Of a stretch of 29,040 nucleotides of DNA, positions 1 through 29,040 are shown in pieces. The stretch covers positions 1-29,040 of the forward strand of contig JAQGDQ010001694.1 in NCBI GenBank assembly GCA_030141605.1, written 5' to 3'. Each line of letters starts with the position of its first letter. Position 1 is the stretch's first letter. Origin of the DNA: Tubiluchus corallicola. Lineage: Eukaryota > Animalia > Priapulida. A program made the position numbers and the translations under genes. Under the pieces are notes generated by a model. The model saw only the letters and a program-made list of their open reading frames with translations. It was not told where the DNA came from and made no database searches.

Positions 1-231
1 AAGGTAAAGTAGTTAGTATATAATTCAGGCAACTGTCGGTTATTATACTTATACATGAATTTAAATAATTCAAGATAATAAATATCATCTATTTTCAATA
101 AACTAAGGTGTATGTATGATGGTGTTGCATGGTCTCTGTAATTGGCAAAAGTCATGTATTTCACTATTTTATTCTGAACTGTTATTAGTGGTTGTAATAA
201 GTATTTTTTTGTTTGCCACCATGACTTAAAA

Positions 232-720
232 CAGTAAATCAAGGGAAGAAAATGCAATGTTAAGTTATGACCCAAAGAATTTTCCGTGCATATCTATATT
301 ACTTAGCATTTTCACTTACCTGCTGGAAACACTTATGTAACTAACAATTTCAAATCTTTGTGCCCTTTGGTAATAATGTTGCTGACTCACCCTCCAGGGT
401 GCGCCACTCACTAACCAAAAACGTATTTTTAATCTTAGTGACAAAGTACAGTAATTTTAAATTTTACTTAATTAGCAAAATGTATACTACGAATGCTCTG
501 ATTATTTCTTCAAACTTTACCTAATGTTATCTAAACTTGTTTCAAACAGCCTACGATTAAAATGGTTGCGCCTAACTGTCATCGCGGGAGTTTAAATTTA
601 CATGTTTTATACAGCGTTACTGCCGACGCAAGCCATGCATACAAAAAGGTAGTATGTAAGTGGTATAAAATTTCGAAGCGAATTTTTTAAGCCTTATGTA
701 AGTGGAGGGTTTTCTTGTGC
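232..720. repeat. Dispersed repeat family A, copy 1 (non-autonomous element, class unknown)
   Basis: Shares tattacttagcatttt...gaaa.acttatgtaacta...cgaatgctc...tcaaacttta...gagtttaaatttaca with 1068-1975 and 22120-22330. Confidence 0.85.
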
Positions 721-1067
721 TTTAACATTGTAGCTCCACTATTTTGAAAAGCTGATTGTCTACAATTCTTTAACGTCCATTGTCTAAATACATAATTTTC
801 TTATGTAAATCTTACTAAATATTAATAAATTTAGAGTTGTAACAATTCTCCATCTTAGTGTGATGAATACTGACATCTTGTAAATGAAAAGGAAAGAGTT
901 AAGAAATTACGAAATACTCATTTTCAATTTACATTCAACTACAATCTCATTTAATCGTCCTACACTTTATTACACTATCTCAACACATAAAGGACAAGGA
1001 AAGTGGCAGGTGAAATAAATTTCAGAAAAATCGCCTTAAAAAATTCCATTACTTTTGAACAATTTTA

Positions 1068-1975
1068 CGATATATCGTACTCGTGTTGAAAGGATTTTTT
1101 GTTTGTCTTCATTTTAAATCGCCCGCAATAATTGCTCAGACCGCGCCATCACATGACGTCACGTACAACATAAATCAGGGGAACAAAAGGAAATGTTAAA
1201 TTATGTCCCAAAAAACTTTCCATGCAAAGTTATATTACTTAGCATTTTGCTTATATGTTTGAAAGACTTATGTAACTAGAAAGGAAAATATGAATTACTG
1301 TTTTCACCAATTGGTAAAATGTCGTTGACTTACCTCCAGAATGCGAGGTAAGTTACATTATTAAGTAAGTCACATAATGTAAAATACATTATTTTTGTTA
1401 TTGACAAAATAAGGTAATTTGAAGTTTTTATTAGTTAGCGAGAGTGTGCTGCGAATGCTCGGGTTATTTTTCAAACTTTACGCAATGTCTTTTAAACCCA
1501 TTTCAAATGACTTACCATTAAAATGGTCATACCGGGAGTTTAAATTTACAAAAAACTTTCCATACAAAGTTTTATAACTTAGCATTTCACTTAGGTGCTG
1601 GAAAGACATAGATCTATAGAAATAAAATTATTAATTATTTAAAATGTTTTCATCAATTGGTGAAATGTCATTGATGCGCCTCCAGTAAGCACCACTCTCT
1701 AACCAAAAAAAAAATGCATTTTTAGTCTTACTGACAACATATAGTAATTTAAAATTTTACTTAGTTAGTAATGTGTGTGCTACGAATGTTCTGATTATTT
1801 TCTCAAACTTTACACAATGTTACCATCAAAATGGCTGCATCTAACAGTCATCGCGGAAGTTTAAATACACATATTTTATACTGCGTTGCTGCCATCGCAA
1901 GCCCTGTATGCAAAAAGGCAGCATATAAGTAGTATAAAATTTCGAGACAAATTTTCAAAGCTTTATATAAGTCGT
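1068..1975. repeat. Repeat family A, copies 2 (1068-1549) and 3 (1550-1975), joined head to tail
   Basis: aaaaaactttcca.. recurs at ~1210 and ~1550. Copy 2 is cut off after gggagtttaaatttaca. Confidence 0.85.
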
Positions 1976-7299: not shown

Positions 7300-9460
7300 A
7301 AACTCAATTTAATTCAGTTTCAATTTATTTATCTCTTTACAGTGTTACAATAAAACATGATTAATAAAAGAATCTCTAATAAGTTTTGAATGTATAGATA
7401 GAACTAGAGAAAGGATAGCGAAAAGGCTATAAAGTCACCTAGTCTGCTATCATTTACCAAATATAGACAAAAAGATTTTTTAAACACTGGTTATCAGTTT
7501 AATTTAGGAAACATTAGTAATTTTTAAAATTATGACATTTTCTATATAATCCAGAAAAAAGAATATACATGTAGTTTAATTAGCGGGCAACAAAATAAGG
7601 ACAATCTTGATTAAACTAAAAATTGCATTTAGTTTTTATGTGAAATACAGGTCAAAATTGTTATGAAATGATAAAAACACTTTGGATTAATAATGCTATT
7701 AATCAACAACAGGAGTTAAATACATTTTCATTTGAGTTCAACTTCATTAGGCTTATTGATTAAGAACAAATCTACTGACTTGGACAATAATACTAAATAA
7801 TATAAACATTAAAAACGTTTGCTTTATGTATACATAAAAATTTGGGAAATGTTTGTTTTTTTCTGTACATTAAAAACATTAGTTTTCATTAAATAATGGC
7901 GGAGAGTGACATATGAAAGCAGCAAAACTTTCAGCTCTAACTGGTTTCTCCTGACCTCAGGAAACTGTGAAAAGGCTTAATGATGCTGATGTTGTCACAT
8001 GTAAACATTAACATTGCTGAACTGTGTAAGAATGATAACTGAATCTGCAAAAATTGCATTAGGTATCAATGGGTGATACGAGTGAGATGGGTCAGTAGTT
8101 GTTCAACTCATTTGGATCACCTTTTTTATATATGAGGATAATTTTTGTTGGATTGTTCCCAGAGTTTATTGAAAATGACAGGTTTTCCTTTGGCAACTTT
8201 AAGAGCCATTTTGTGATGCTTTTATGCTTGGCTAAAAATGCAATTTTCAAGGAAGGTACAGAAATAACGGAATCTTTAGATTTTGTTTGGCGTGGATAGG
8301 AATAAAGTTTGTACTTGCATCCATCTTATGTACCATGGAGACTATTACGATTTTCTGTAACAATAGGGATTCTTCTGAAATAATAAAAAAAAACAAAGTT
8401 TACCAATTTAAAATTTAGAATTATTTGTTTCCAATATTTGATTTTTTGGGAATGAAAAGCACTTTTTAACTATTCTGGAATAAAAAAAAATCACATTTAA
8501 ATTTTTTAGACTTGACTTTGTCATCCGGTTTAATGTAGAACTCTTGGTTTTTAGACGATTTAAAAGAAATCTCCTATTCACGAGACACTTTCAAAAGTTA
8601 AAAATTAGCATAGCATTTGACCCTTGCGATCTATTAGTTACTTTTGCCAGGTAAAGTTAGTTAATTATAAATATTTAAACACAAATTGTTGTTTTTGCCA
8701 AGCAAGATGATTTATACCATTTATTTGCTGAAGTCAACTGACCCAGTGTCATTGGTCTTCTTCGTCCGTCTCCGTCTCCATCACCGTATCCGCATTTGTA
8801 TCTGTATCCACCTCCGTATTCTCCATAATTTCCTAAAGTATCAGCAAACATTGAAATATTAACATTAGGCAAGTCATAGCCAATGAAAGAATATAGTAAG
8901 AAAAAGGAACATCACTACTGTATGGGAAAGTTATAACAGAAACCACTATCATTATAATGTAAATATATATATATATGTAGGCATGAAAAGCATATATGTG
9001 TGGAGAGCATGTGCAATTTTCACACTTGCATCATTGAAAATCCGGATTGTCAATACGAATTCTTCACCAATTAACCCAAAAAATTAGAATTGCTGATCAG
9101 AATATGTTGTTGTAATTATTTTACAGGTTGAAAAGTCCATGGACGATTAGGTGATAATTTACCATCTTGATTTTAAGATTCCTGATTGATATGGAATAAA
9201 CTCACACTTCTTTCCTTTCAGTTAATTCAAGAAATCAATAACTGTGGGCTCACTTTACCATTTTTCATAACCCATTTGGGAAATACAATAATATAAATGA
9301 ATAATTACACAGAAGCAAAAAGAAAATAAACCCAACAATCAACATTTTGATTTTCCATAATGCACCTCTGGAGAACCCCGCCAGTATGTCATAACTGGAG
9401 CTAAGGCATTTTTTACGCTATTTGCGTGGATCTGTCCTTGCAAACTAGTTCTTGAATGTA
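7300..9460 (-). mobile_element. Possible heavily decayed L1/Tx1-like LINE 3' half
   Basis: Minus-strand remnants in the expected order: LSSSYDI../GGVLQRC (like RGVRQGC, ~9400-9362), RRPMTLGQL..NK..LAK (~8760), NFTWQK (~8650), and a tail aataaattgaaactgaattaaattg (~7330-7305). Many stops and frameshifts. Confidence 0.35.
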
Positions 9461-10071: not shown

Positions 10072-10440
10072 CTTCACAACAATAATTTCAAAGAATAAAA
10101 ATAGTTTCAACAGGTCAAAAACACAGTGGTTATTCTCAACAATAAAATGGCACTTCTTTATTGCTTAAGTTTCGATTACGTTATCGTTAACAGGCTCTTT
10201 TACAATATAGATAATACAGTAGCATTCACTGCTTTATAATCTAACGTATATTTCTAGATGACTTGTGAATGTGCACTGATGATGATGCAAGTCTTGAAAC
10301 GTAAGCAATAAAGAACTGTCATATTGTTATCATCAACAGCTGTTGTAATGGTTGAGTTACAGAAAACAGGCGTATAAACCTGATACTTATAACAGATTTC
10401 TGACATGTGATCTACATTTATAGTTACTGTTATTTCATAC

Positions 10441-10487
10441 CTTGTAAGGTCTTGAATTTCATCATTGTTGAGGTACTTCCACACTAC
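10441..10487 (-). CDS. Candidate downstream exon VVWKYLNNDEIQDLT(S)
   Basis: ttttgttttag| and AAG|GTATGA, 47 nt, phase 0-2. Confidence 0.45.
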
Positions 10488-10639
10488 CTAAAACAAAATT
10501 ATTCTTAACGAGCAGAATACAGATTGTGAAATGTAATAACAAAATGGCCAGCTTTACTTTTAGTAGTGCAGCTTGCAAAATGAATAAATAAAAAACAACC
10601 AAATATATAGCAACAAAACTAAATTGGCCAACAATTCTT

Positions 10640-10790
10640 TTGCATGAGAATTTATTACAAAACTCTTGCACAAACCTCATAACAAATCATGTACTACAGG
10701 TTCTACAAGTAACAAATCATGGAACCTGTTAAGGAAATGTAATAATACTTGCTCGTGACCGGAATCTAAGCATTGCCTTTAAATATACCT
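10640..10790 (-). pseudogene. Degenerate tandem duplicate of the 10853-10990 exon and its donor
   Basis: agattccggtcacgagcaa...ttacatttccttaacaggttccatgatttg...ag|gtttgtgcaagagtt versus agattccggtctcgagcaa...ttacatttgcttaaaaggctccatgagttg...ag|gtttgtataagagtt. The copy carries in-frame stops. Confidence 0.75.
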
Positions 10791-10852
10791 CAATATTGCT
10801 GGACAAATATTATTACAAAACTGAAAATTTACTATTAAACTCTTATACAAAC

Positions 10853-10990
10853 CTTGAATAAGAAGTCGCCGTCAATTAAATCTACAGGTGGCCCTGAAAG
10901 ACGCAACTCATGGAGCCTTTTAAGCAAATGTAACATTCTTTGCTCGAGACCGGAATCTTTCCATGCCTCATTATTCCACAACATATAATT
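10853..10990 (-). CDS. Candidate downstream exon NYMLWNNEAWKDSGLEQRMLHLLKRLHELRLSGPPVDLIDGDFLFK
   Basis: tttcag| and AAG|GTTTGT, 138 nt, phase 0-0, compatible with the phase-0 donor at 12163. Confidence 0.5.
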
Positions 10991-11601
10991 CTGAAATAAA
11001 ACTATTAAAATTGAAAACAACAATATATGACTTTGTAAAAGAGGACAATATTCTTTGTTCACAGAAAGATTTTAAACTAGACCTGACAGCTGACAGAATA
11101 GCAATTATTTCTGAAACGCAAGCATGTCAAACTGCCTAAAATTAAACATCTAAAACAACTTTTTAACACAGTAATTAAAGCTCTTGCTGCCAATCCCTCT
11201 CCATCATGTATGCGGCACAACGGCTTGGCAAAAAGACATTCTACTATGATCTTGATAAAAGTGTAAAAGTTGAAAGCAAAATTTACATTCATTTGTAACA
11301 CTTGGAAAAACAGACTATCTTTCATAGCAGCTGTTTTAGACAGTTTGAAAAATGTTCAAATAATTCATACAATATGTTTAATAAACAACAATTGTACAAC
11401 ACGAAGATATAAGGTATTTACAAATTGAATCTGTTTTTGACAATCGTCAAAATGGTGTTTTTTCGGCAAATCAGAGGTAATTTTAGTTTTTTTAGTTTAA
11501 TTTTCTCAAAAGCCATGCTATTATGTACATTGGTACATGAACTCAGTATGGAGTCTAACAATGGAGCGGAATTAAAAATGATTGGTTTTACTCTGTAAAG
11601 C

Positions 11602-12066: not shown

Positions 12067-13881
12067 TTATTTAAAACATGAAAAATGCAGAAATGTTAAC
12101 AATGCAAGCAAAAGTTTGAAATGCTCTAAAAACACTAATGTTGCTAATAATCTATAAAATACCTGCACAACTCTCAACCGTGCATGAGACCATTGATCAA
12201 GTTGCTCCCAGTTGAAATCCCCAAGGTTAGTTGGTACAGTGTTTTCTGTGACATGAGTACAAATGTTTTCTGCGCATATGATCATCAAATCCAGAACAGG
12301 CATTTTACCAATATGCTTCTTGGCATGTTCTTCAAGTACATTTACATCTTCAAGAAGGTGGTGACGCATGTACTTTTTTTTGCAGCAGTCAGAAATGTAG
12401 GTAAATATGCCTGAAACTCGATTCGAAACTTCGTCGTCTTCCCAGTCATAGTCATTTGGATAGCGGCTGGCTTCATGAATTGAAGCCGTTTTAAGTATGT
12501 AAGAATCTATAAGGAGGCCAGGATGGAATTTCAGCGAACAAATGGCGTGCAGTTGCTCACACTCGGAATTTTCTTGCTTAAACTTATCAATGGTTTCCTC
12601 AGAATGAAGGTCATCATTGAGCAAAGCTTTTGCCAGAATTATTCCTTCTTTCTTCTGTGCACTCATGTTTCCAAGAAGTTCACTTTCATACACAGCCATA
12701 GATATGGGGCAGTAATTCTGCCCTGCATCAGGACATGGCTTAAATACAAGGTGATAAGAAGTAGCTGAGCGAGTGTCATGTGATGTCAACATCCCTGCCG
12801 GTTTACCTGGTACTTCTACAGCAGGTGTCATGTCTATTGAGATAGGTAGTGGTGCATCGTAATAGCCTCGAGTTGGCATGTACGTCAGTTTGAAGCAAGT
12901 ACAAACCTTATTCCACTCTATCTTATCGAACTTAAAAGATCCCCTTATTTCCGAGTCTTCTAGGAAAACTGCATTCATAGCCCGGGACAAAAGAATAGTA
13001 AAATAGCTCTTTAAGTTGTCAATCGAAAACCTGTTATTCTTAACAAACTCGGGAAACATTTCCATTGCTTTGTCACCTAACGTAATGTTTACATATCCTG
13101 CTTTGTCGACTTCTTCGACATTCAGGCCCTCGCATAAGCTGTTAAAGATGATGAAAAAATCAAATTCATCCGGTAACCCAGCTTTGATTCCGCATGCACT
13201 GCTGCCCACGAGCTTGCAGAAAGAATCAAACCTTTCATCTATTTCTCCCAACTTAGTACATACTTTGACAGCTAAGGCTTCAATTTTTGTTCTGATAAAA
13301 TCATTTTCTTCAGTCAGTGGAAGACGTCCTATGCCAGTGAGCTCAAGTACTTCTTTCACCGATTTATGATCTAAGTCTTCCTTTCGCAACAAATTAATGC
13401 ATTTCGTTTTAAATGTAAACTGGTTATCATCCTCAGTCTTTTTATTGGCTGTTACATACAGAGATGTTAGCAGATAACCAATAGTCTCTCGTAGTTCTTT
13501 GTTTAGGGTTTTATTTGTTGCTCTATTAATGTACAACTTCATTGCAGTCTTGCCAGAATTGTCTTGTTTGTTAATATCAACGCCATGTTTCACTAATGAA
13601 GTCACCACTCCTGATTCCAAAGTTAGTTCTGCCTCAGCAGCAGAATGCAGTGCCGTCCAACCATCATTGTCAGTCAAGTTAGGATCTGCACCTGCTTCTA
13701 GTAGCAAACTAACAATGAGTTCATTATCTCTCCTGGCTGCATACATCAATGCTGTGCCTCCATCTTCATCTTTAACATTGACATCAGCACGATCTTGTAT
13801 AAGCCGTTTTACTTGCTCAGCATCATCAAACTTTACTGCTATGTGGAGTTTTGTCCAACCATATTGGTTTCTCTCGTTGAT
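12067..13881 (-). CDS. cGLR: Large exon: ankyrin repeats (~13881-13520) + Mab-21/cGAS-like receptor nucleotidyltransferase domain (~13320-12250)
   Basis: The 560 aa ORF extends upstream in frame to the acceptor ttcag|ATC at 13881. ANK motifs: YGWTKLHIAV, GGTALMYAA, DGWTALHSAA, SGKTAM. NTase motifs: GSSACGIKAGLPDEFDF (cGAS GSYYEHVKISAPNEFDV), SIDMTPAV (third acidic residue), ISMAVYESELL, KKEGIILAKAL, SYILKT, and DW...DCCKKKYMRHHLLEDVNVL. Probable donor CAG|GTATTT at 12163. Confidence 0.93.
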   Translation of the reverse strand: MNERNQYGWTKLHIAVKFDDAEQVKRLIQDRADVNVKDEDGGTALMYAARRDNELIVSLLLEAGADPNLTDNDGWTALHSAAEAELTLESGVVTSLVKHGVDINKQDNSGKTAMKLYINRATNKTLNKELRETIGYLLTSLYVTANKKTEDDNQFTFKTKCINLLRKEDLDHKSVKEVLELTGIGRLPLTEENDFIRTKIEALAVKVCTKLGEIDERFDSFCKLVGSSACGIKAGLPDEFDFFIIFNSLCEGLNVEEVDKAGYVNITLGDKAMEMFPEFVKNNRFSIDNLKSYFTILLSRAMNAVFLEDSEIRGSFKFDKIEWNKVCTCFKLTYMPTRGYYDAPLPISIDMTPAVEVPGKPAGMLTSHDTRSATSYHLVFKPCPDAGQNYCPISMAVYESELLGNMSAQKKEGIILAKALLNDDLHSEETIDKFKQENSECEQLHAICSLKFHPGLLIDSYILKTASIHEASRYPNDYDWEDDEVSNRVSGIFTYISDCCKKKYMRHHLLEDVNVLEEHAKKHIGKMPVLDLMIICAENICTHVTENTVPTNLGDFNWEQLDQWSHARLRVVQVFYRLLATLVFLEHFKLLLALLTFLHFSCFK

Positions 13882-16800
13882 CTGAAACCAGTTTAAAATC
13901 AGAGAAAATATTGAAACTAAGTTTTGACCTGAAATTTTTGCAAATCGTTAAATTTTTAGTGATCAGTCATTGTGACTTGAGTTTAAATCAAATAAGTTGA
14001 CAGTTTGACAAATCAAAGGTTTCTACCGTTTTGGTTTTGACTACTTTGACTACCTGGAGTGAAAAGCATTAATAAGATATTGAAATTTACACCGTCTCAA
14101 TCTGCATAGCCTGGCGAAGATTTGCACATGCCGATGACAAATAATGTGCAAACATTCTGCAAATTGTTTTATTTTGAGAAATTGCTGCAAAGCAGTATCT
14201 TCTTGATTTACCCGAATTTTTATTATGTCCATTTTGACCTTTTATACTTTTTTATTTTTGCCTCTCGTGGTGCTCATTTAGCTTTGAATGTGACCCGATC
14301 GCCACAGGCCAAAGCTGTGAAAGATGTCAAAGGTCACAGATGGGCAGGCGTTCCCGAGTTCCATTGGCTTTATCCTATTAGCTAAATACGTTGAACTCGG
14401 GTCACAGTTTCTGCGTATATTGCTATGTGGGGTCAACGCCTAGTGAGTGGCTGAATATAGGTCATGTGCATTTTCTCTAGGGCATAAAAACTAAAATGAA
14501 TGCTTCGTATTCATGCATAGCAGATATAATGGAGACGGTTTTTTACAGCTTGAGACCAACAGCTATCTGGTCAAAAAATGTCAACTTTCGATTTTATTAA
14601 ATTCAAAACACAGATACAAAATAACAAGGCATGGTAAGATCAATGGAAAAAGTATCTATACCCTCGGACACAATGACAGTAAATTATTTATGACCTTTTT
14701 CAGTCATTAATTGTGATACTTCATTCAGTCAAACTTCAAATGAACTTGAAAGAAAATTGTATAGTAAAAAAGTACGCATTATCCTGTATTCGAACCAGTA
14801 AACTTTGGATTATTAAAGTAATAGCATGAAAGTACAGAACTATCATGAAGCAAACCCCTTCTATCCTTTACGTCTCTTTTGTTTCATGTATAGTGTACAT
14901 GATGTGGAGTGGGTTGTTTTTTGTGAGTGGTGAGGCAAGTGTGGGTGGTGTGGTGGGTGTAGCATGGCACGGTTTGTGTGATGTGGTGTGGCAGGCTATG
15001 GGTGGTGTGATACGGATTGTGTGTTGTGGGTCGTGTCAGTGGAATTGTGTGATGTGGTGTGTTTTGCTGAGGGTGAAAAGTATGGATGGTCGTAATGTGT
15101 GATTTGTCCACGCCAAAATTTTTTACAGGGTTGGGCTGGTAAAAATTTATTGCTGTTAGGCCTAACAACAATGACATTGCATTCTCGAGACATGTATTTC
15201 AAGATTTAAGAACGTATTTTATTCATTATTAAGCAACAAGCACTGTCATTTAACTATAAAATTGACTTGACGAAAAGTTGCAAATCGGAAAAATCTGCTT
15301 AATGATACACTCACTCTCCAGCACTGCAAGAACAATTGCATTCCATTTCCAGCCAAAAACCGACGACAGTTTGAAGGCGTTTCACCTACAGCAACAAACA
15401 AGTTCTCATATTAACTGACTGAAGCAACATTCATACTCTACAGCATAACAATTAGATTAAACAAATTTCAATGCAAAACATGTTATACTAATATAATAAC
15501 ATTAAGTACAATAAACGCTTCATGGTAAATTAACCACATAAAACCATAACCATAACTAATTATGATCTCAAAAAGAGGAAATCTTTAAAACTTCAACAAT
15601 TTAAAGTCACACGGACAATCATCAAAGATTTTAATTTCAATTTTTCGGGCAGCATCAATTTTTACAAACATATTTTATTAGAACGCTGGGTATAACATCA
15701 ACTAACTGTAACTTTACCGAGCAAACATCATTTTCTATATGAACCTAACTTCTTTCTTTAGCAAAACTTAAGAGTTTTTGGCAATTGCATATTTTATGCA
15801 ATTACATTATTTGCTAAAACATTGCTGCTACACAAAAAATGGTCAGTTTACACGGCACAACTGGTGTAAAGTAATATAACATATGAATTAACATCATAAA
15901 GCTGGCAGTACTCAATACATACTTACCAGTAACATTAAACATTGTCAGCCAAGCAAGGTGCATCGCATCATCGCAAACTTGATTCTCTAGACATTTCGTT
16001 ATCACATCTAGCATTATCTACAATATAAGAATTGAATTTTATAACTTTATTGTTAATATTCCACCGGCAACAGTTTTATCATGTTTGTTTTTCTTCTTTT
16101 TCACATAGTCTGCTGTGATCTTCAACCAAGTTTAACGAAAAATTAAAAGGCAAGAAGAAATTGAAAAGAAACACACGGGATCAAACAGCAAAAAGTGTTT
16201 TCACTATTTTAATTTGTGAGACACATTATGAAAATTTAAAGAAAAATATTAAGAAAAGTAACTTTTATGATAGAATTAGAACAATCTGTGTAACTGTTTA
16301 AAATATGAGTAACATGGGCAAATCTTGGAATTATAATAATTAATGTTAAGTTTAGTAATTATCATGGCAAAATTAAAATTTTTTCATTAACACTGAATTT
16401 GGTCGGGAAGCTATAAGGGATGAACTTTGGACTACCTTGTTCACTAGTGAGTATGATAGCTTACTGGTCTAATGCATCTGCCTCCTAAGCAGAAAGTCTA
16501 TGGTTAAAATCCATGCTATATTCAAGCTTTTTTTTTACATTTCCTGCCTCACAAATTTGGTATTAAAATTTAATTAACTATGGGTTTATGCCAGCAAGAG
16601 AATAACTAATATGTTCCACACATTTAGATACATAGATTTAAGAAAGCACCATTTTACCTCTATAGCTCCCCTTTCACCGACTAGCTGCTTGTGCTCACCA
16701 TCTACTCTGCAAATGATGCGATGTAATAAGAGGATGCTGCCTCCTTGGATTAAGGGATCCTGAGACTGTCTTACTGTCCTGAGCAACACTTCAACCAACT

Positions 16801-19800: not shown

Positions 19801-22800
19801 TCCTGAAGTTCTCGATCCTGTTACCTGTAAACTATAAACTGATGATTTGAAAATGTATCGACCATTTATTATTGCATTGTGCAATTGACCAATTAACAGA
19901 CTGGTCCTACAAATGGCAACTAAATATAGCTGCACCATGTTTCATTCAGCTTTTGGCAATCCTTATCTTCAGCATTTACTTTATGGCACTCCCCTTATGC
20001 GTAGTAACAAATGTAATGACATGGGTGTTACAGTATCGTCCAATTTGAAATTCTCGACACATTGTAAAACCATAGTTTCTAAGCCATTTTGTATGGTAAA
20101 TAGGATGTTTCGGTGTTTCTACACTAAAAACAGAACTGCACTGTTGACTGCTTATAGAGATTATGTGCGTCCCTTGTTGGAGTACTGCTCATTAGTGTGG
20201 TCCCCTCACAATATGCAAGATACTGACAGCATTGTAAAGGTTCAGGGACATTTTTCTTGTAGGCTGTTCCAACGATGCCACTTTAATTTGGTTTCTTATT
20301 TAGACAGACTGTCAGAACTGGAATTGCAGCCATTCGAATTGAGGTGCCTTGCGTCTGATCTTAAGATGGTGTACAGAAGTTGTCGTAATATACTGGGGTT
20401 AACTTTTGATGATTTTTTTCTAGCATGCTACAACCAACCACTTGCGTGGTGACAACTTTAAACTGTTTACGTCTTTCTCGAGATTGAAAGCAAAAAATTT
20501 TCATTTGCTGAAAAAGTTGTAAACATTTGTAATGCTCTGGATTCTCATGTAGTTCTCGCTACTAGTTTGTCAGTTTTCACTAAAAGATTAGCTAATGTTA
20601 ATTTACTGCCCTATTGCAACTTTATCCGAAACATGTAACATTGTCATTAGCGTAATCGGTTCTCTCCAAATTGTATTACTGTTCAGAACGTGTTGCATAT
20701 AGTATACAATTCATATTTACGTACATTTTATTGGAGTTTTTTGATGACAGATATTCAATTTTAGGGTCTTGTTTTTAGAAATTTCATTTTTGTGCATTTT
20801 TTGTGTCTGATAGAATCAGCATAAATACGCATGCGCCTGCTGATTCTTTCTTTTATACATTTTTCAAAATGACCTTAAAACTAACATGTTTTGCCCTATT
20901 AGCATAATTGTGAATTTACCCATATGTACCTCAAGTGCGCGTTGGCTATAACGCAGTTTCCCTCTCTTATATAGTTGAAGTAAGTGCTGCAATGACTTTA
21001 GTAGCTCTTCAACTCTGTCCATGTTGTGTTCCAGTGACGTTATAATCTGTTGTTCATCAGCATCTCCAGCAACCTGCATGAATCAAGTAACAGACTGACA
21101 TTACTATCCCATTAAATGACTAGAAATACAAGTACGTTGATTAAACACAACAGCTTGAATACAAACACACAAGTGAGTAGGGGCAATGGTCCCGGACTGT
21201 GTGATTTAGGGCCCCACCCCCTCATTTTTTAGGGCGGCTCTATTCCTAACCCAAACACCCTCCAAATAATGTCCAACCCTAACCCTAGCTATTTTTTGTT
21301 TCATGTAAAGTAAAATGAAATAAAGTAAAATTGTAAAGTAAAAAGAAGGTATTACACTGTATTTGAACCAGTAACCTTTGGATTATTAAAATAATAGCAC
21401 GAAAGTGCAGAGCAATCATTAGGCAAACCCTTTCTATCCTTTACATCTTTTTTGATTCATGTATGGTGTACATGATGTGTTGCAGGTTGTCGGTGGAATG
21501 GTGTGATGTTTTGTTGAAGGTGGGCAGTGGGGATGGTGGTATGGTGCGATTTGTTCACTCCAAAATTTTTTGCAGGGTTGACCGGTAAAAATTTATTGCT
21601 GTTAGGCCTAACAACAACGACACTGCATTCTCGGGACATGTGTTTCAAGGTTTAAGAACGTATTTTATTCATTCTTCTGTGTGCTCACGTTGGGTGCGTG
21701 ACTTTATTATTTTTTTATTTATGAGTAATTGTAGCTCAATTGGTGACCAAAAATTGTGAGACGAGGCATTGTTTGATTTGAAATAATACATTTACTAACC
21801 ATAAGTTGTAGATTGATATTTTGTATGCGGTAAAATCACAAAAATGCTTAGAATAATTTTACATTATAAAATAAATAATAATAATTATTGTATAATTTAT
21901 ATATTAATTTATATATAATTTATATATTAATAATTATTTATTTTATTATATAATTATTACATTATATAATAAATTTACATGATATTAATGTTAGCTGCAT
22001 AAACTGTTTGAGTGAGTATTTTCAAGGTGAATAGGATGCTTTGTGTACCCCTTGTGGTAACGCTGGTGGAACATTGTTAAATTGCATCTTATCCTGGCAC
22101 GAACATTTTAAATTTTTATTTTTAGTTACATAAGTCTTTCCAGTAGGTAAATGAAGTGGTAAGTAATACATATTTGCATAGAAAGTTACTTGGGTTATAA
22201 TTTAACATTGCATTTTCTTTCCCTGATTTACGTTTGTGTAGGTGACGTCACGTATTGGCACGGATGGAACAGTGTTGCAGGAGATTTATTATGAAAACAA
22301 AAAATTCCTTTTAACACGAGTACGATATACGCATTAAATTTGATTCAAACTAACATTGAACAAGCTATAGAGCCTGTACTAATAACTTGAGCAAAAATGT
22401 GAAAACGCAGCAAACACAATTAAGAGTTTCAAATAACAGCCGATTAATTGTTTAACAACCGCCAGTTTAACAACATTGTCAGTTAAGTGTCACTGAGCCT
22501 GTTCAGTACAAATATCTGTGGCCATCGTGTCCAACACTCACTCAATTCATTCACCTTACTGTACCTGGGTGTGTTTATTTTGTTGATGCATGATGTACTA
22601 ACATGATGACACATGATGTACTTCGAATGAGACAAAGACACCTCTGTTGGTTTAATGCCTCATCTTAGAAGAATAGCCTTGATAGTTTTTTAAACACATT
22701 TTTGGACGTAATGTAGCCTGTGGTTAGGACAGGATAGTTGATAACAACTGTCAGTGACAGGAGGTTCATTGACAGTTGTGAACAGGCATTAAGCAACACT

Positions 22801-27550: not shown

Positions 27551-27675
27551 TCACTCTTGTAACTCTTGTAGAATATTCTGTGTTTCGTGAGGCTGCCACG
27601 TCTGCAGCCTTACAGGTTTTTTGTGGCACATTGTATGCGCCATATTTTATGTTGAATATTGTTTAAATAAATTGT

Positions 27676-29040
<1,365 letters not shown>

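What the first reader, a model, noticed from the sequence alone, without database searches (positions are those of the whole stretch)
12250..13320. cGLR domain appears catalytically intact and lacks the cGAS zinc ribbon
Seen: GS-x11-EFD (13206-13159), a third Asp in SIDMTP (12834-12832), and SYILKT and K-x6-K motifs. After ISMAVYESELL only GNMSAQ precedes KKEG, so the H..CC..C zinc thumb of vertebrate cGAS is absent. An acidic insertion (NDDLHSEETIDKFKQENSECEQ...) sits between the LAKAL helix and SYILKT. Inference: an active synthase of a nucleotide second messenger whose ligand may not be dsDNA; the acidic loop and appended repeat domains suggest protein-mediated activation.
Basis: partly seen in the sequence, partly recalled or inferred. 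Interest (0 to 1): 0.7.

Follow-up and report, generated by a model that had tools for sequence, protein, structure and literature searches.

The report
Acidic ankyrin-fused cGAS-like enzyme
This invertebrate gene joins ankyrin repeats to an unusually acidic relative of the immune alarm enzyme cGAS with its catalytic residues intact; lacking the zinc thumb is normal outside vertebrates and close relatives are already catalogued, but it likely responds to something other than DNA or RNA and is predicted to make a messenger other than the usual 2'3'-cGAMP.

Summary
A 573-codon exon (13881-12163, minus strand) encodes 3-4 ankyrin repeats and a cGAS-like receptor (cGLR) domain. The model's best structural matches are Cv-cGLR1 (Z 27.6), Tc-cGLR, Sp-cGLR1 and cGAS. 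GS, E-x-D and the third Asp are at the stated coordinates and are conserved in the six relatives found (one has lost the Glu). The missing zinc ribbon is the published norm for non-vertebrate cGLRs, including dsRNA and dsDNA sensors, so it says nothing about the ligand. The insertion is real but adds only about 21 residues over cGAS, is modelled as helices, sits at cGAS's site-C loop and is not acidic in most relatives (net -6 here, -4 to +4 in them). The better argument is whole-domain acidity: pI 5.14 on the published scale, against above 8.5 for nucleic-acid sensors. A Priapulus member of this ankyrin-cGLR subfamily is already in Li et al. 2023 Table S1, unscreened. One addition: all 7 members lack the Arg that fixes GTP and the 2'-5' link in cGAS, predicting a different product. 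Activity, expression, ligand and product are untested.

The parts
12163..13881 (-). Main coding exon, 573 codons, phase 0-0 (acceptor TTTCAG before 13881, donor CAG|GTATTT after 12163); no start codon of its own at the 5' end
   Evidence: Sequence; homology to P0002 stops near the donor. Splice sites are inferred, no RNA seen.
13534..13881 (-). Ankyrin repeats: three full and a partial fourth
   Evidence: Pfam Ank 3 stretches, Ank_4 4 stretches; helix pairs with pLDDT mostly above 90
13456..13500 (-). Helix between the ankyrin stack and the enzyme, conserved across the subfamily
   Evidence: Alignment A1; helix 129-143 of the ankyrin-plus-domain model
12190..13371 (-). cGLR (Mab-21 family) nucleotidyltransferase domain, 394 aa, pI 5.14, net charge about -21
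   Evidence: Pfam; model pLDDT 82.5, pTM 0.84; fold searches; pI
13249..13317 (-). Spine helix (main ligand groove in cGAS), net charge 0
   Evidence: Helix 21-44 of the model; charge 0 here, -4 to +2 in relatives
13159..13206 (-). GS activation loop, conserved Lys and catalytic E-x-D
   Evidence: 23 of 23 residues around it identical to P0002
12832..12834 (-). Third catalytic Asp (model residue 180, in strand 175-188)
   Evidence: Asp in 7 of 7 aligned members; strand assignment
12706..12708 (-). Pro at the position of mouse cGAS Arg364 (GTP and 2'-5' determinant); no Arg or Lys in any of 7 members
   Evidence: Column reads P,A,V,S,S,L,L; other copies in the DNA runs read Ala; role of Arg364 from PMC11091121; equivalence inferred by counting from the conserved Glu
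12628..12687 (-). Conserved Glu to conserved Lys, 19 apart: short connector with no zinc ribbon; includes K-x6-K
   Evidence: Same length in 7 of 7 members; 19 in MB21D2 and Hv-cGLR, 31 in human cGAS (counted)
12505..12618 (-). Lengthened segment before SYILK (about 21 residues more than cGAS), modelled as two helices; net -6
   Evidence: 38-54 residues long in all 7 members, acidity not conserved
12490..12504 (-). SYxLK motif (Tyr and Lys that line the nucleotide pocket in cGAS)
   Evidence: Aligns to cGAS and Sp-cGLR1; Ser and Lys in 7 of 7, Tyr in 6 of 7
10853..10990 (-). Likely downstream exon, 46 codons, phase 0-0, matching the helical C-terminal tail of P0002
   Evidence: Score 70 against a shuffled maximum of 46; clean AG/GT ends
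10379..11113 (-). Further tail pieces: a partial exon-like copy at about 11110-11031, a broken copy at about 10790-10676, and a weak candidate exon from 10487
   Evidence: Scores 60, 37 and 35 (only the first beats the null); 71% DNA identity between 10822-10958 and 10645-10767. Exon structure unresolved.
8154..8351 (+). Isolated, frameshifted, inverted 200-bp scrap of a paralogous cGLR domain
   Evidence: 72% identity to 12856-13058, E 4e-23; one-base insertion

Best explanation
This is an ankyrin-fused animal cGAS-like receptor with an intact catalytic triad, likely able to make a cyclic dinucleotide, likely switched on by a non-nucleic-acid cue rather than DNA or RNA, and predicted to make something other than 2'3'-cGAMP. 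Shown: the ankyrin-plus-cGLR build, the cGLR fold of the model, GS, E-x-D and D, the pocket residues matching mouse K402, Y421, K424, H467 and S366, domain pI 5.14 and a neutral spine helix. Inferred, in order of falling confidence: the enzyme is competent (about 0.7); long dsDNA or dsRNA is not its activator, because the domain is acidic and two of three basic positions next to the former zinc ribbon are lost (about 0.65); ATP is still preferred at the donor site while the acceptor site has lost the Arg that selects GTP and the 2'-5' link, so the product is not 2'3'-cGAMP and may be 3'3'-linked (about 0.55); the ankyrin stack, held by a conserved linker helix, binds the trigger or a regulator and releases the enzyme (about 0.4); the product signals to STING. 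The missing zinc ribbon is the family default and the lengthened loop is a subfamily structural trait.
For: Fold: Cv-cGLR1 Z 27.6 (rmsd 3.0, 324 aligned), Tc-cGLR 24.8, Sp-cGLR1 24.4, mouse cGAS 24.2, best CD-NTase 18.3, OAS1 17.0; Foldseek cGAS E 2.6e-15. Constraint: 38 of 41 columns invariant in the six relatives are kept; activation loop 23 of 23 identical to P0002 against 61% overall. pI on the scale that reproduces Li's 7.46 for the P0125 domain: 5.14 here, 6.08-7.69 in relatives, against above 8.5 for nucleic-acid sensors and 5.0 for the ligand-unknown Pd-cGLR. Arg364 position non-basic in 7 of 7; R364A lowers GTP use and shifts mouse cGAS to 3'-5' links; of the 15 active enzymes listed, 13 have Arg, 1 Lys and 1 Cys by my count, and the Cys one (Sp-cGLR1) is the one reported to make 3'3'-cUA.
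Against: No activity or expression data. The 40 differences shown (of 176) against other copies in two runs are 12 silent and 28 replacement, equal to the neutral expectation of 11 silent, so recent constraint is not demonstrated. This copy has Pro at the Arg364 position inside a pocket strand where other copies have Ala. The 5' exon was not found and the tail exons include broken duplicates. The strict published motif is not met: Val stands before GS and the second-to-third acid spacing is 108, not 50-90. Extreme acidity is not shared by Priapulus members (up to 8.22). Surface electrostatics and triad distances were not computed. The 3'3' correlation rests on one natural enzyme. Li et al. report that many intact-looking cGLRs were silent in vitro.
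Confidence: 0.5

Rival explanations
1. An intact-looking but inactive or decaying copy in a fast-turnover gene family, or a non-enzymatic scaffold like MAB21L1.
For: Neutral-like ratio among the 40 shown differences; private Pro in the pocket strand; broken tail-exon duplicates and a paralogue scrap nearby; many diverged copies in the DNA run; one Priapulus relative has lost the first catalytic Glu; MB21D2 keeps a triad yet gave no product.
Against: 573 open codons with plausible splice sites; 38 of 41 invariant columns kept; no significant rate excess over P0002 (38 vs 31 derived changes, p 0.47), although the tree gave it the longer branch (0.55 vs 0.15).
Confidence: 0.25
2. An ordinary dsRNA or dsDNA sensor making 2'3'-cGAMP, with the ankyrins serving only for localisation.
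For: 9 of the 15 active enzymes in the Li screen sense nucleic acid and none shows a cGAS-type ribbon in my reading; the best structural match is the dsDNA sensor Cv-cGLR1; the Lys matching cGAS K407 is basic in 6 of 7 members; a Priapulus member has pI 8.22.
Against: Domain net charge -21 and pI 5.14; spine helix net 0; two neighbouring basic positions replaced by Ser and Ile; Arg364 equivalent lost.
Confidence: 0.15
3. One reading: the acidic inserted loop is itself the switch, binding a basic protein or being cut to activate the enzyme.
For: The segment is among the most acidic windows of the domain and is long in 7 of 7 members. Bacterial CD-NTases can be activated by cleavage of a surface loop (PMC12991175, abstract and outline).
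Against: Net charge ranges from -6 to +4 across members; identity to the five distant relatives is the lowest of seven regions compared (0.13-0.21); it is modelled as helices rather than an open loop; it aligns with the site-C KKH loop; other ankyrin-cGLRs also lengthen this segment (25, 27 and 33 vs 22).
Confidence: 0.1

Closest known systems
Priapulus caudatus ankyrin-cGLRs XP_014666123.1 and XP_014668761.1 in Li et al. 2023 Table S1 (PMC9980059)
   Same: Ankyrins, conserved linker helix and cGLR domain; VGS loop, WNKVCT strand (the only 2 rows of Table S1 that hold it), no zinc ribbon, long segment before SYxLK, no Arg364 equivalent. XP_014666123.1 is P0125.
   Different: About 30% identity; 3-4 ankyrins in this exon against longer stacks; domain pI 5.14 against 7.46 and 8.22; a longer helical tail shared with P0002. 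Neither accession is in the screened list.
Pd-cGLR (Pocillopora damicornis), acidic ligand-unknown cGLR
   Same: pI about 5, no zinc ribbon, second-to-third acid spacing over 90 (131 by my count), proposed non-nucleic-acid ligand.
   Different: No ankyrins in the screened sequence; keeps a Lys at the Arg364 position and makes 2'3'-cGAMP; activity shown.
Sp-cGLR1 (8GJY), Cv-cGLR1 (8GJW), Tc-cGLR (7LT2)
   Same: Same fold (Z 24.4-27.6), triad, no cGAS-type ribbon; Sp-cGLR1 also lacks the Arg364 equivalent and makes 3'3'-cUA.
   Different: They are activated by dsRNA or dsDNA, a group reported at pI above 8.5; 15-17% identity; short segment before SYxLK.
Vertebrate cGAS
   Same: Caged nucleotidyltransferase fold, GS loop, E-x-D and D, K-x6-K, SYxxK.
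   Different: No zinc ribbon (12 residues shorter there), 21 residues longer at the KKH loop, acidic, ankyrin N-terminus, no Arg364 equivalent.
MAB21L1 and MB21D2
   Same: Same family and fold (Z 20.7 and 23.6); MB21D2 has the same 19-residue connector.
   Different: MAB21L1 lacks the GS loop where aligned and is developmental; neither carries ankyrins.

Membership tests
Animal cGLRs (Li et al. 2023 criteria) | G[S/G] loop and [DE]h[DE] ... [DE] triad | tested here: met
   G56 S57, E69, D71, D180 in domain numbering
Animal cGLRs (Li et al. 2023 criteria) | Strict pattern h[QT]GS and 50-90 spacing | tested here: inconclusive
   Val before GS and spacing 108 miss the letter of the pattern, but XP_014666123.1 (Val, spacing 96) was accepted into Table S1 and the active Pd-cGLR also misses both
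Animal cGLRs (Li et al. 2023 criteria) | Homology over both the NTase core and the C-terminal helix bundle | tested here: met
   Mab-21_C 7 of 7 and Mab-21 6 of 7 members at E up to 0.1; profile hits cGAS in both lobes
Animal cGLRs (Li et al. 2023 criteria) | Predicted structure homologous to cGLR enzymes | tested here: met
   Top five VIA-align rows are cGLR, cGAS or MB21D2, Z 23.6-27.6 over 316-329 residues
Animal cGLRs (Li et al. 2023 criteria) | [quoted passage not shown] | not testable with these tools
   Needs an enzyme assay
Animal cGLRs (Li et al. 2023 criteria) | Triad converging in three dimensions | tested here: inconclusive
Vertebrate-type cGAS | Zinc ribbon H-x5-CC-x6-C | tested here: not met
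   No Cys or His in the connector, no such pattern in the exon; definition in PMC8783940
Nucleic-acid-sensing cGLRs | pI above 8.5 and a basic ligand groove | tested here: not met
   pI 5.14, spine net 0; surface potential itself not computed
Ankyrin-fused cGLRs, WNKVCT subfamily | N-terminal ankyrins, linker helix and WNKVCT strand | tested here: met
   The subfamily label is mine, not a published name.
MAB21L1/2/3 | High conservation with MAB21L and a degenerate GS loop | tested here: not met
   17% identity in the structural alignment; GS intact here
Bacterial CD-NTases and OAS | Closest fold or profile match | tested here: not met
   Best CD-NTase Z 18.3 and OAS1 17.0, well below cGLRs; 0 PADLOC families for 7 members

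The most novel reading that the evidence does not exclude
The WNKVCT ankyrin-cGLR subfamily is an animal cGAS branch in which ankyrin repeats, not a nucleic-acid groove, detect a protein trigger, and the enzyme writes a private, non-2'3' (probably 3'3'-linked) cyclic dinucleotide. It would be the first protein-gated animal cGLR with its own messenger chemistry.
Probability: 0.2. Interest if true: 0.75.

Novelty: new member of a known kind. Interest (0 to 1): 0.32.

Why it matters
What activates acidic and ankyrin-fused cGLRs is an open question named by Li et al. 2023. This gene is one more candidate, with a compact build (3-4 ankyrins and the enzyme in one exon) and a pI at the acidic end of the published examples. 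The subfamily-wide loss of the Arg364 equivalent gives a cheap, falsifiable prediction about the product.

Tried and rejected
No whole genome is held, so paralogue number and STING content were not checked. Searches with the ankyrin part included were swamped: of the best 120 and best 150 rows only P0002 covered the enzyme domain. The domain-only search gave 6 hits among 2,642 candidates; the profile search for 210-697 aa proteins gave 0 among 7,994, so the family range is undersampled. The metagenome scan gave 1 locus of 281 stretches (L001, a distant ankyrin-cGLR without WNKVCT). No RNA holder was listed; X6 (RNA is a guess) gave only scraps. Ankyrin-enzyme docking has no verdict; the single-chain pTM of 0.81 only hints at a defined arrangement. 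The Atlas look-up of the P0002 tail did not complete, and Pfam finds nothing there. Faster evolution of this copy was suggested by the tree but not supported by counts. Biopython pI values were replaced by a recalled DTASelect pKa set after it reproduced the published 7.46. NCBIfam ankyrin-effector hits are far below cut-off and reflect generic ankyrins. A 5' exon was looked for by tblastn with P0002 and not found. Literature: 10 searches listed no paper testing an ankyrin-fused or priapulid cGLR; most subscription journals are not covered, and PMC6575157 is not held. Earlier scan notes: none by place or by sequence.

Full report
Locus. The window is AT-rich DNA (31-40% GC outside a terminal triplet array) with few long open frames. 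The finding lies in a minus-strand frame, 13947-12070. Pfam finds three to four ankyrin stretches, Mab-21_C above its cut-off and Mab-21 just below. An acceptor before 13881 and a donor after 12163 bound a 573-codon, phase 0-0 exon. Similarity to the closest relative, P0002 (773 aa, unnamed, 56% overall), ends about there and resumes in small pieces downstream: 10990-10853 scores 70 and 11099-11031 scores 60 against a shuffled maximum of 46, while two other pieces (37, 35) do not beat the null. The 5' exon was not found. The organism is an animal by inference from the relatives and gene structure; I did not identify it.

Observation. There is no Cys or His between the conserved Glu and Lys and no ribbon pattern in the exon. 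The motif pattern alone is weak evidence (7.75% of 20,000 shuffles; 0.115% with SYxLK), but profile and fold evidence settle it.

Family. The domain model (7-sequence alignment; pLDDT 82.5, pTM 0.84) matches cGAS at E 2.6e-15. Against 48,161 chains the order is Cv-cGLR1 Z 27.6 (rmsd 3.0, 324 aligned), Tc-cGLR 24.8, Sp-cGLR1 24.4, mouse cGAS 24.2, MB21D2 23.6, MiD49 22.9, MAB21L1 20.7, then CD-NTases at 18.3 or less and OAS1 17.0. The Atlas features search gave Mab-21 clusters at 0.96. The domain search returned 6 proteins of 2,642 candidates: P0002 (61%), two unnamed proteins and three Priapulus caudatus proteins (28-29%), all with ankyrins. All share VGS, WNKVCT, a linker helix and a long segment before SYxLK. 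P0125 is XP_014666123.1, row 1480 of Li et al. 2023 Table S1; WNKVCT occurs in 2 rows of that table, both Priapulus. Neither is in the screened list, where 'ankyrin' and 'Priapul' have 0 hits, though that column holds descriptions rather than domain calls. The 29% identity is too low to call this animal a priapulid.

Zinc ribbon. PMC8410604 (passages) states that the ribbon is absent from Tc-cGLR, MB21D2 and insect cGLRs, which include dsRNA sensors. The Glu-to-Lys distance is 19 in 7 of 7 members here, 19 in MB21D2 and Hv-cGLR, 23 in the dsDNA-activated Cv-cGLR1 and 31 in human cGAS (my counts on sequences). The absence is the family default and does not predict the ligand.

Insertion. The Lys-to-Tyr distance is 43 here, 45-59 in the six relatives, 22 in human cGAS, 14 in Sp-cGLR1, 20 in Pd-cGLR, and 25, 27 and 33 in three other ankyrin-cGLRs (partly my counts). 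The excess over cGAS is about 21 residues, modelled as helices 259-267 and 272-282 with block pLDDT 59-85. In cGAS this stretch holds the KKH loop of site C (PMC8365253, passages). Net charge is -6 here and -3, +2, -4, +2, +4, +3 in relatives; it is the least conserved of seven regions against the distant relatives. It is a subfamily trait whose acidity is local to this copy.

Ligand. Li et al. (bioRxiv sections 5, 6, 7, 10, 25 and passages; supplement rows) report pI above 8.5 for nucleic-acid sensors and about 5.0 for Pd-cGLR, and already propose non-nucleic-acid ligands and protein-interaction roles for ankyrin fusions. A recalled DTASelect pKa set reproduces their 7.46 for the P0125 domain and gives 5.14 for this domain, 5.26 without the insertion, and 6.08-7.69 for relatives. 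The spine helix has net charge 0. Of three basic cGAS positions flanking the ribbon (their DNA-binding role is recalled), the K407 equivalent is kept and the K384 and K411 equivalents are Ser and Ile. This favours a non-nucleic-acid trigger for this copy; surface potential was not computed.

Product. PMC11091121 (passages) shows that mouse Arg364, Ser366 and Ile309 fix GTP at the acceptor site, that R364A cuts ATP/GTP activity 33-fold and shifts ATP/ATP products to 3'-5' links, and that Tyr421 and His467 shape the ATP site. Counting from the conserved Glu, the Arg364 column reads P, A, V, S, S, L, L; Ser366 is kept here; Tyr is kept in 6 of 7 and His in 7 of 7. Among the 15 active enzymes I count 13 Arg, 1 Lys and 1 Cys, and the Cys enzyme is the 3'3'-cUA maker. 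The prediction is a product other than 2'3'-cGAMP. It rests on sequence counting and one natural example, and the same loss could simply lower activity.

Is it alive? For: an open 573-codon exon, 38 of 41 invariant columns kept, activation loop identical to P0002. Against: the 40 differences shown of 176 against contigs of two runs are 12 silent and 28 replacement, as neutral change would give (p 0.43), a selected and unphased sample; the Pro is particular to this copy; broken tail duplicates and an inverted paralogue scrap lie nearby. None of the 40 shown differences hits a catalytic codon, but 136 were not shown. The runs hold many diverged copies, some with a 99-base step consistent with an extra ankyrin repeat, which suggests an expanded family.

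Verdict. It is a new member of a catalogued kind. Two earlier scan notes on ankyrin-cGLRs in other genomes reached a similar reading; they are not independent evidence. Other papers were seen only as search listings, except PMC8783940 (passages) and PMC12991175 (abstract and outline). Figures S1, S2 and S5 of Li et al. (tree position, surface charge) could not be viewed and may bear on the subfamily's placement.

Noticed in passing
window 8154-8351 (+): Inverted, frameshifted 200-bp scrap of a paralogous cGLR domain, 72% identical to 12856-13058 and closer in protein terms to P0002 than to this gene.
   Followed up: partly
window 11113-10676 (-): The roughly 46-codon helical tail exon seems to be present in about three tandem copies, one clean and two partial or broken; P0002 has one. 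The tail has no Pfam match.
   Followed up: partly
window 13655-13753: Contigs of two runs step back 99 bases here, consistent with paralogues that carry one more ankyrin repeat; P0002 also has an extra repeat.
   Followed up: no
window 16449-16524 (+): tRNA-Arg(CCT)-like sequence (Rfam 40.9 bits); a true gene or a tRNA-derived repeat, not resolved.
   Followed up: partly
window 19889-20452 (+) and 3-293 (-): Frames that resemble the C-terminal end of LINE reverse transcriptases (recalled likeness; Pfam found nothing for 19892-20452, and 3-293 was not scanned).
   Followed up: partly
window 27670-29040: Triplet array of over 400 copies (CTG consensus, starting as CTA/CTG) running off the window end.
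   Followed up: no
window 224-1972 and 22102-22349; 14738-15230 and 21313-21676: Two families of dispersed repeats, 69-84% identical.
   Followed up: no
L001 568-3330 (+): Intronless 921-aa ankyrin-cGLR with an intact triad and domain pI 5.8 on a metagenome contig; a different subfamily without WNKVCT.
   Followed up: partly
P0124 and P0126 (Priapulus XP_014670921.1, XP_014669145.1): Two further Priapulus ankyrin-cGLRs not found in the Li supplements; P0124 has a full triad, P0126 has Gly for the first Glu.
   Followed up: partly
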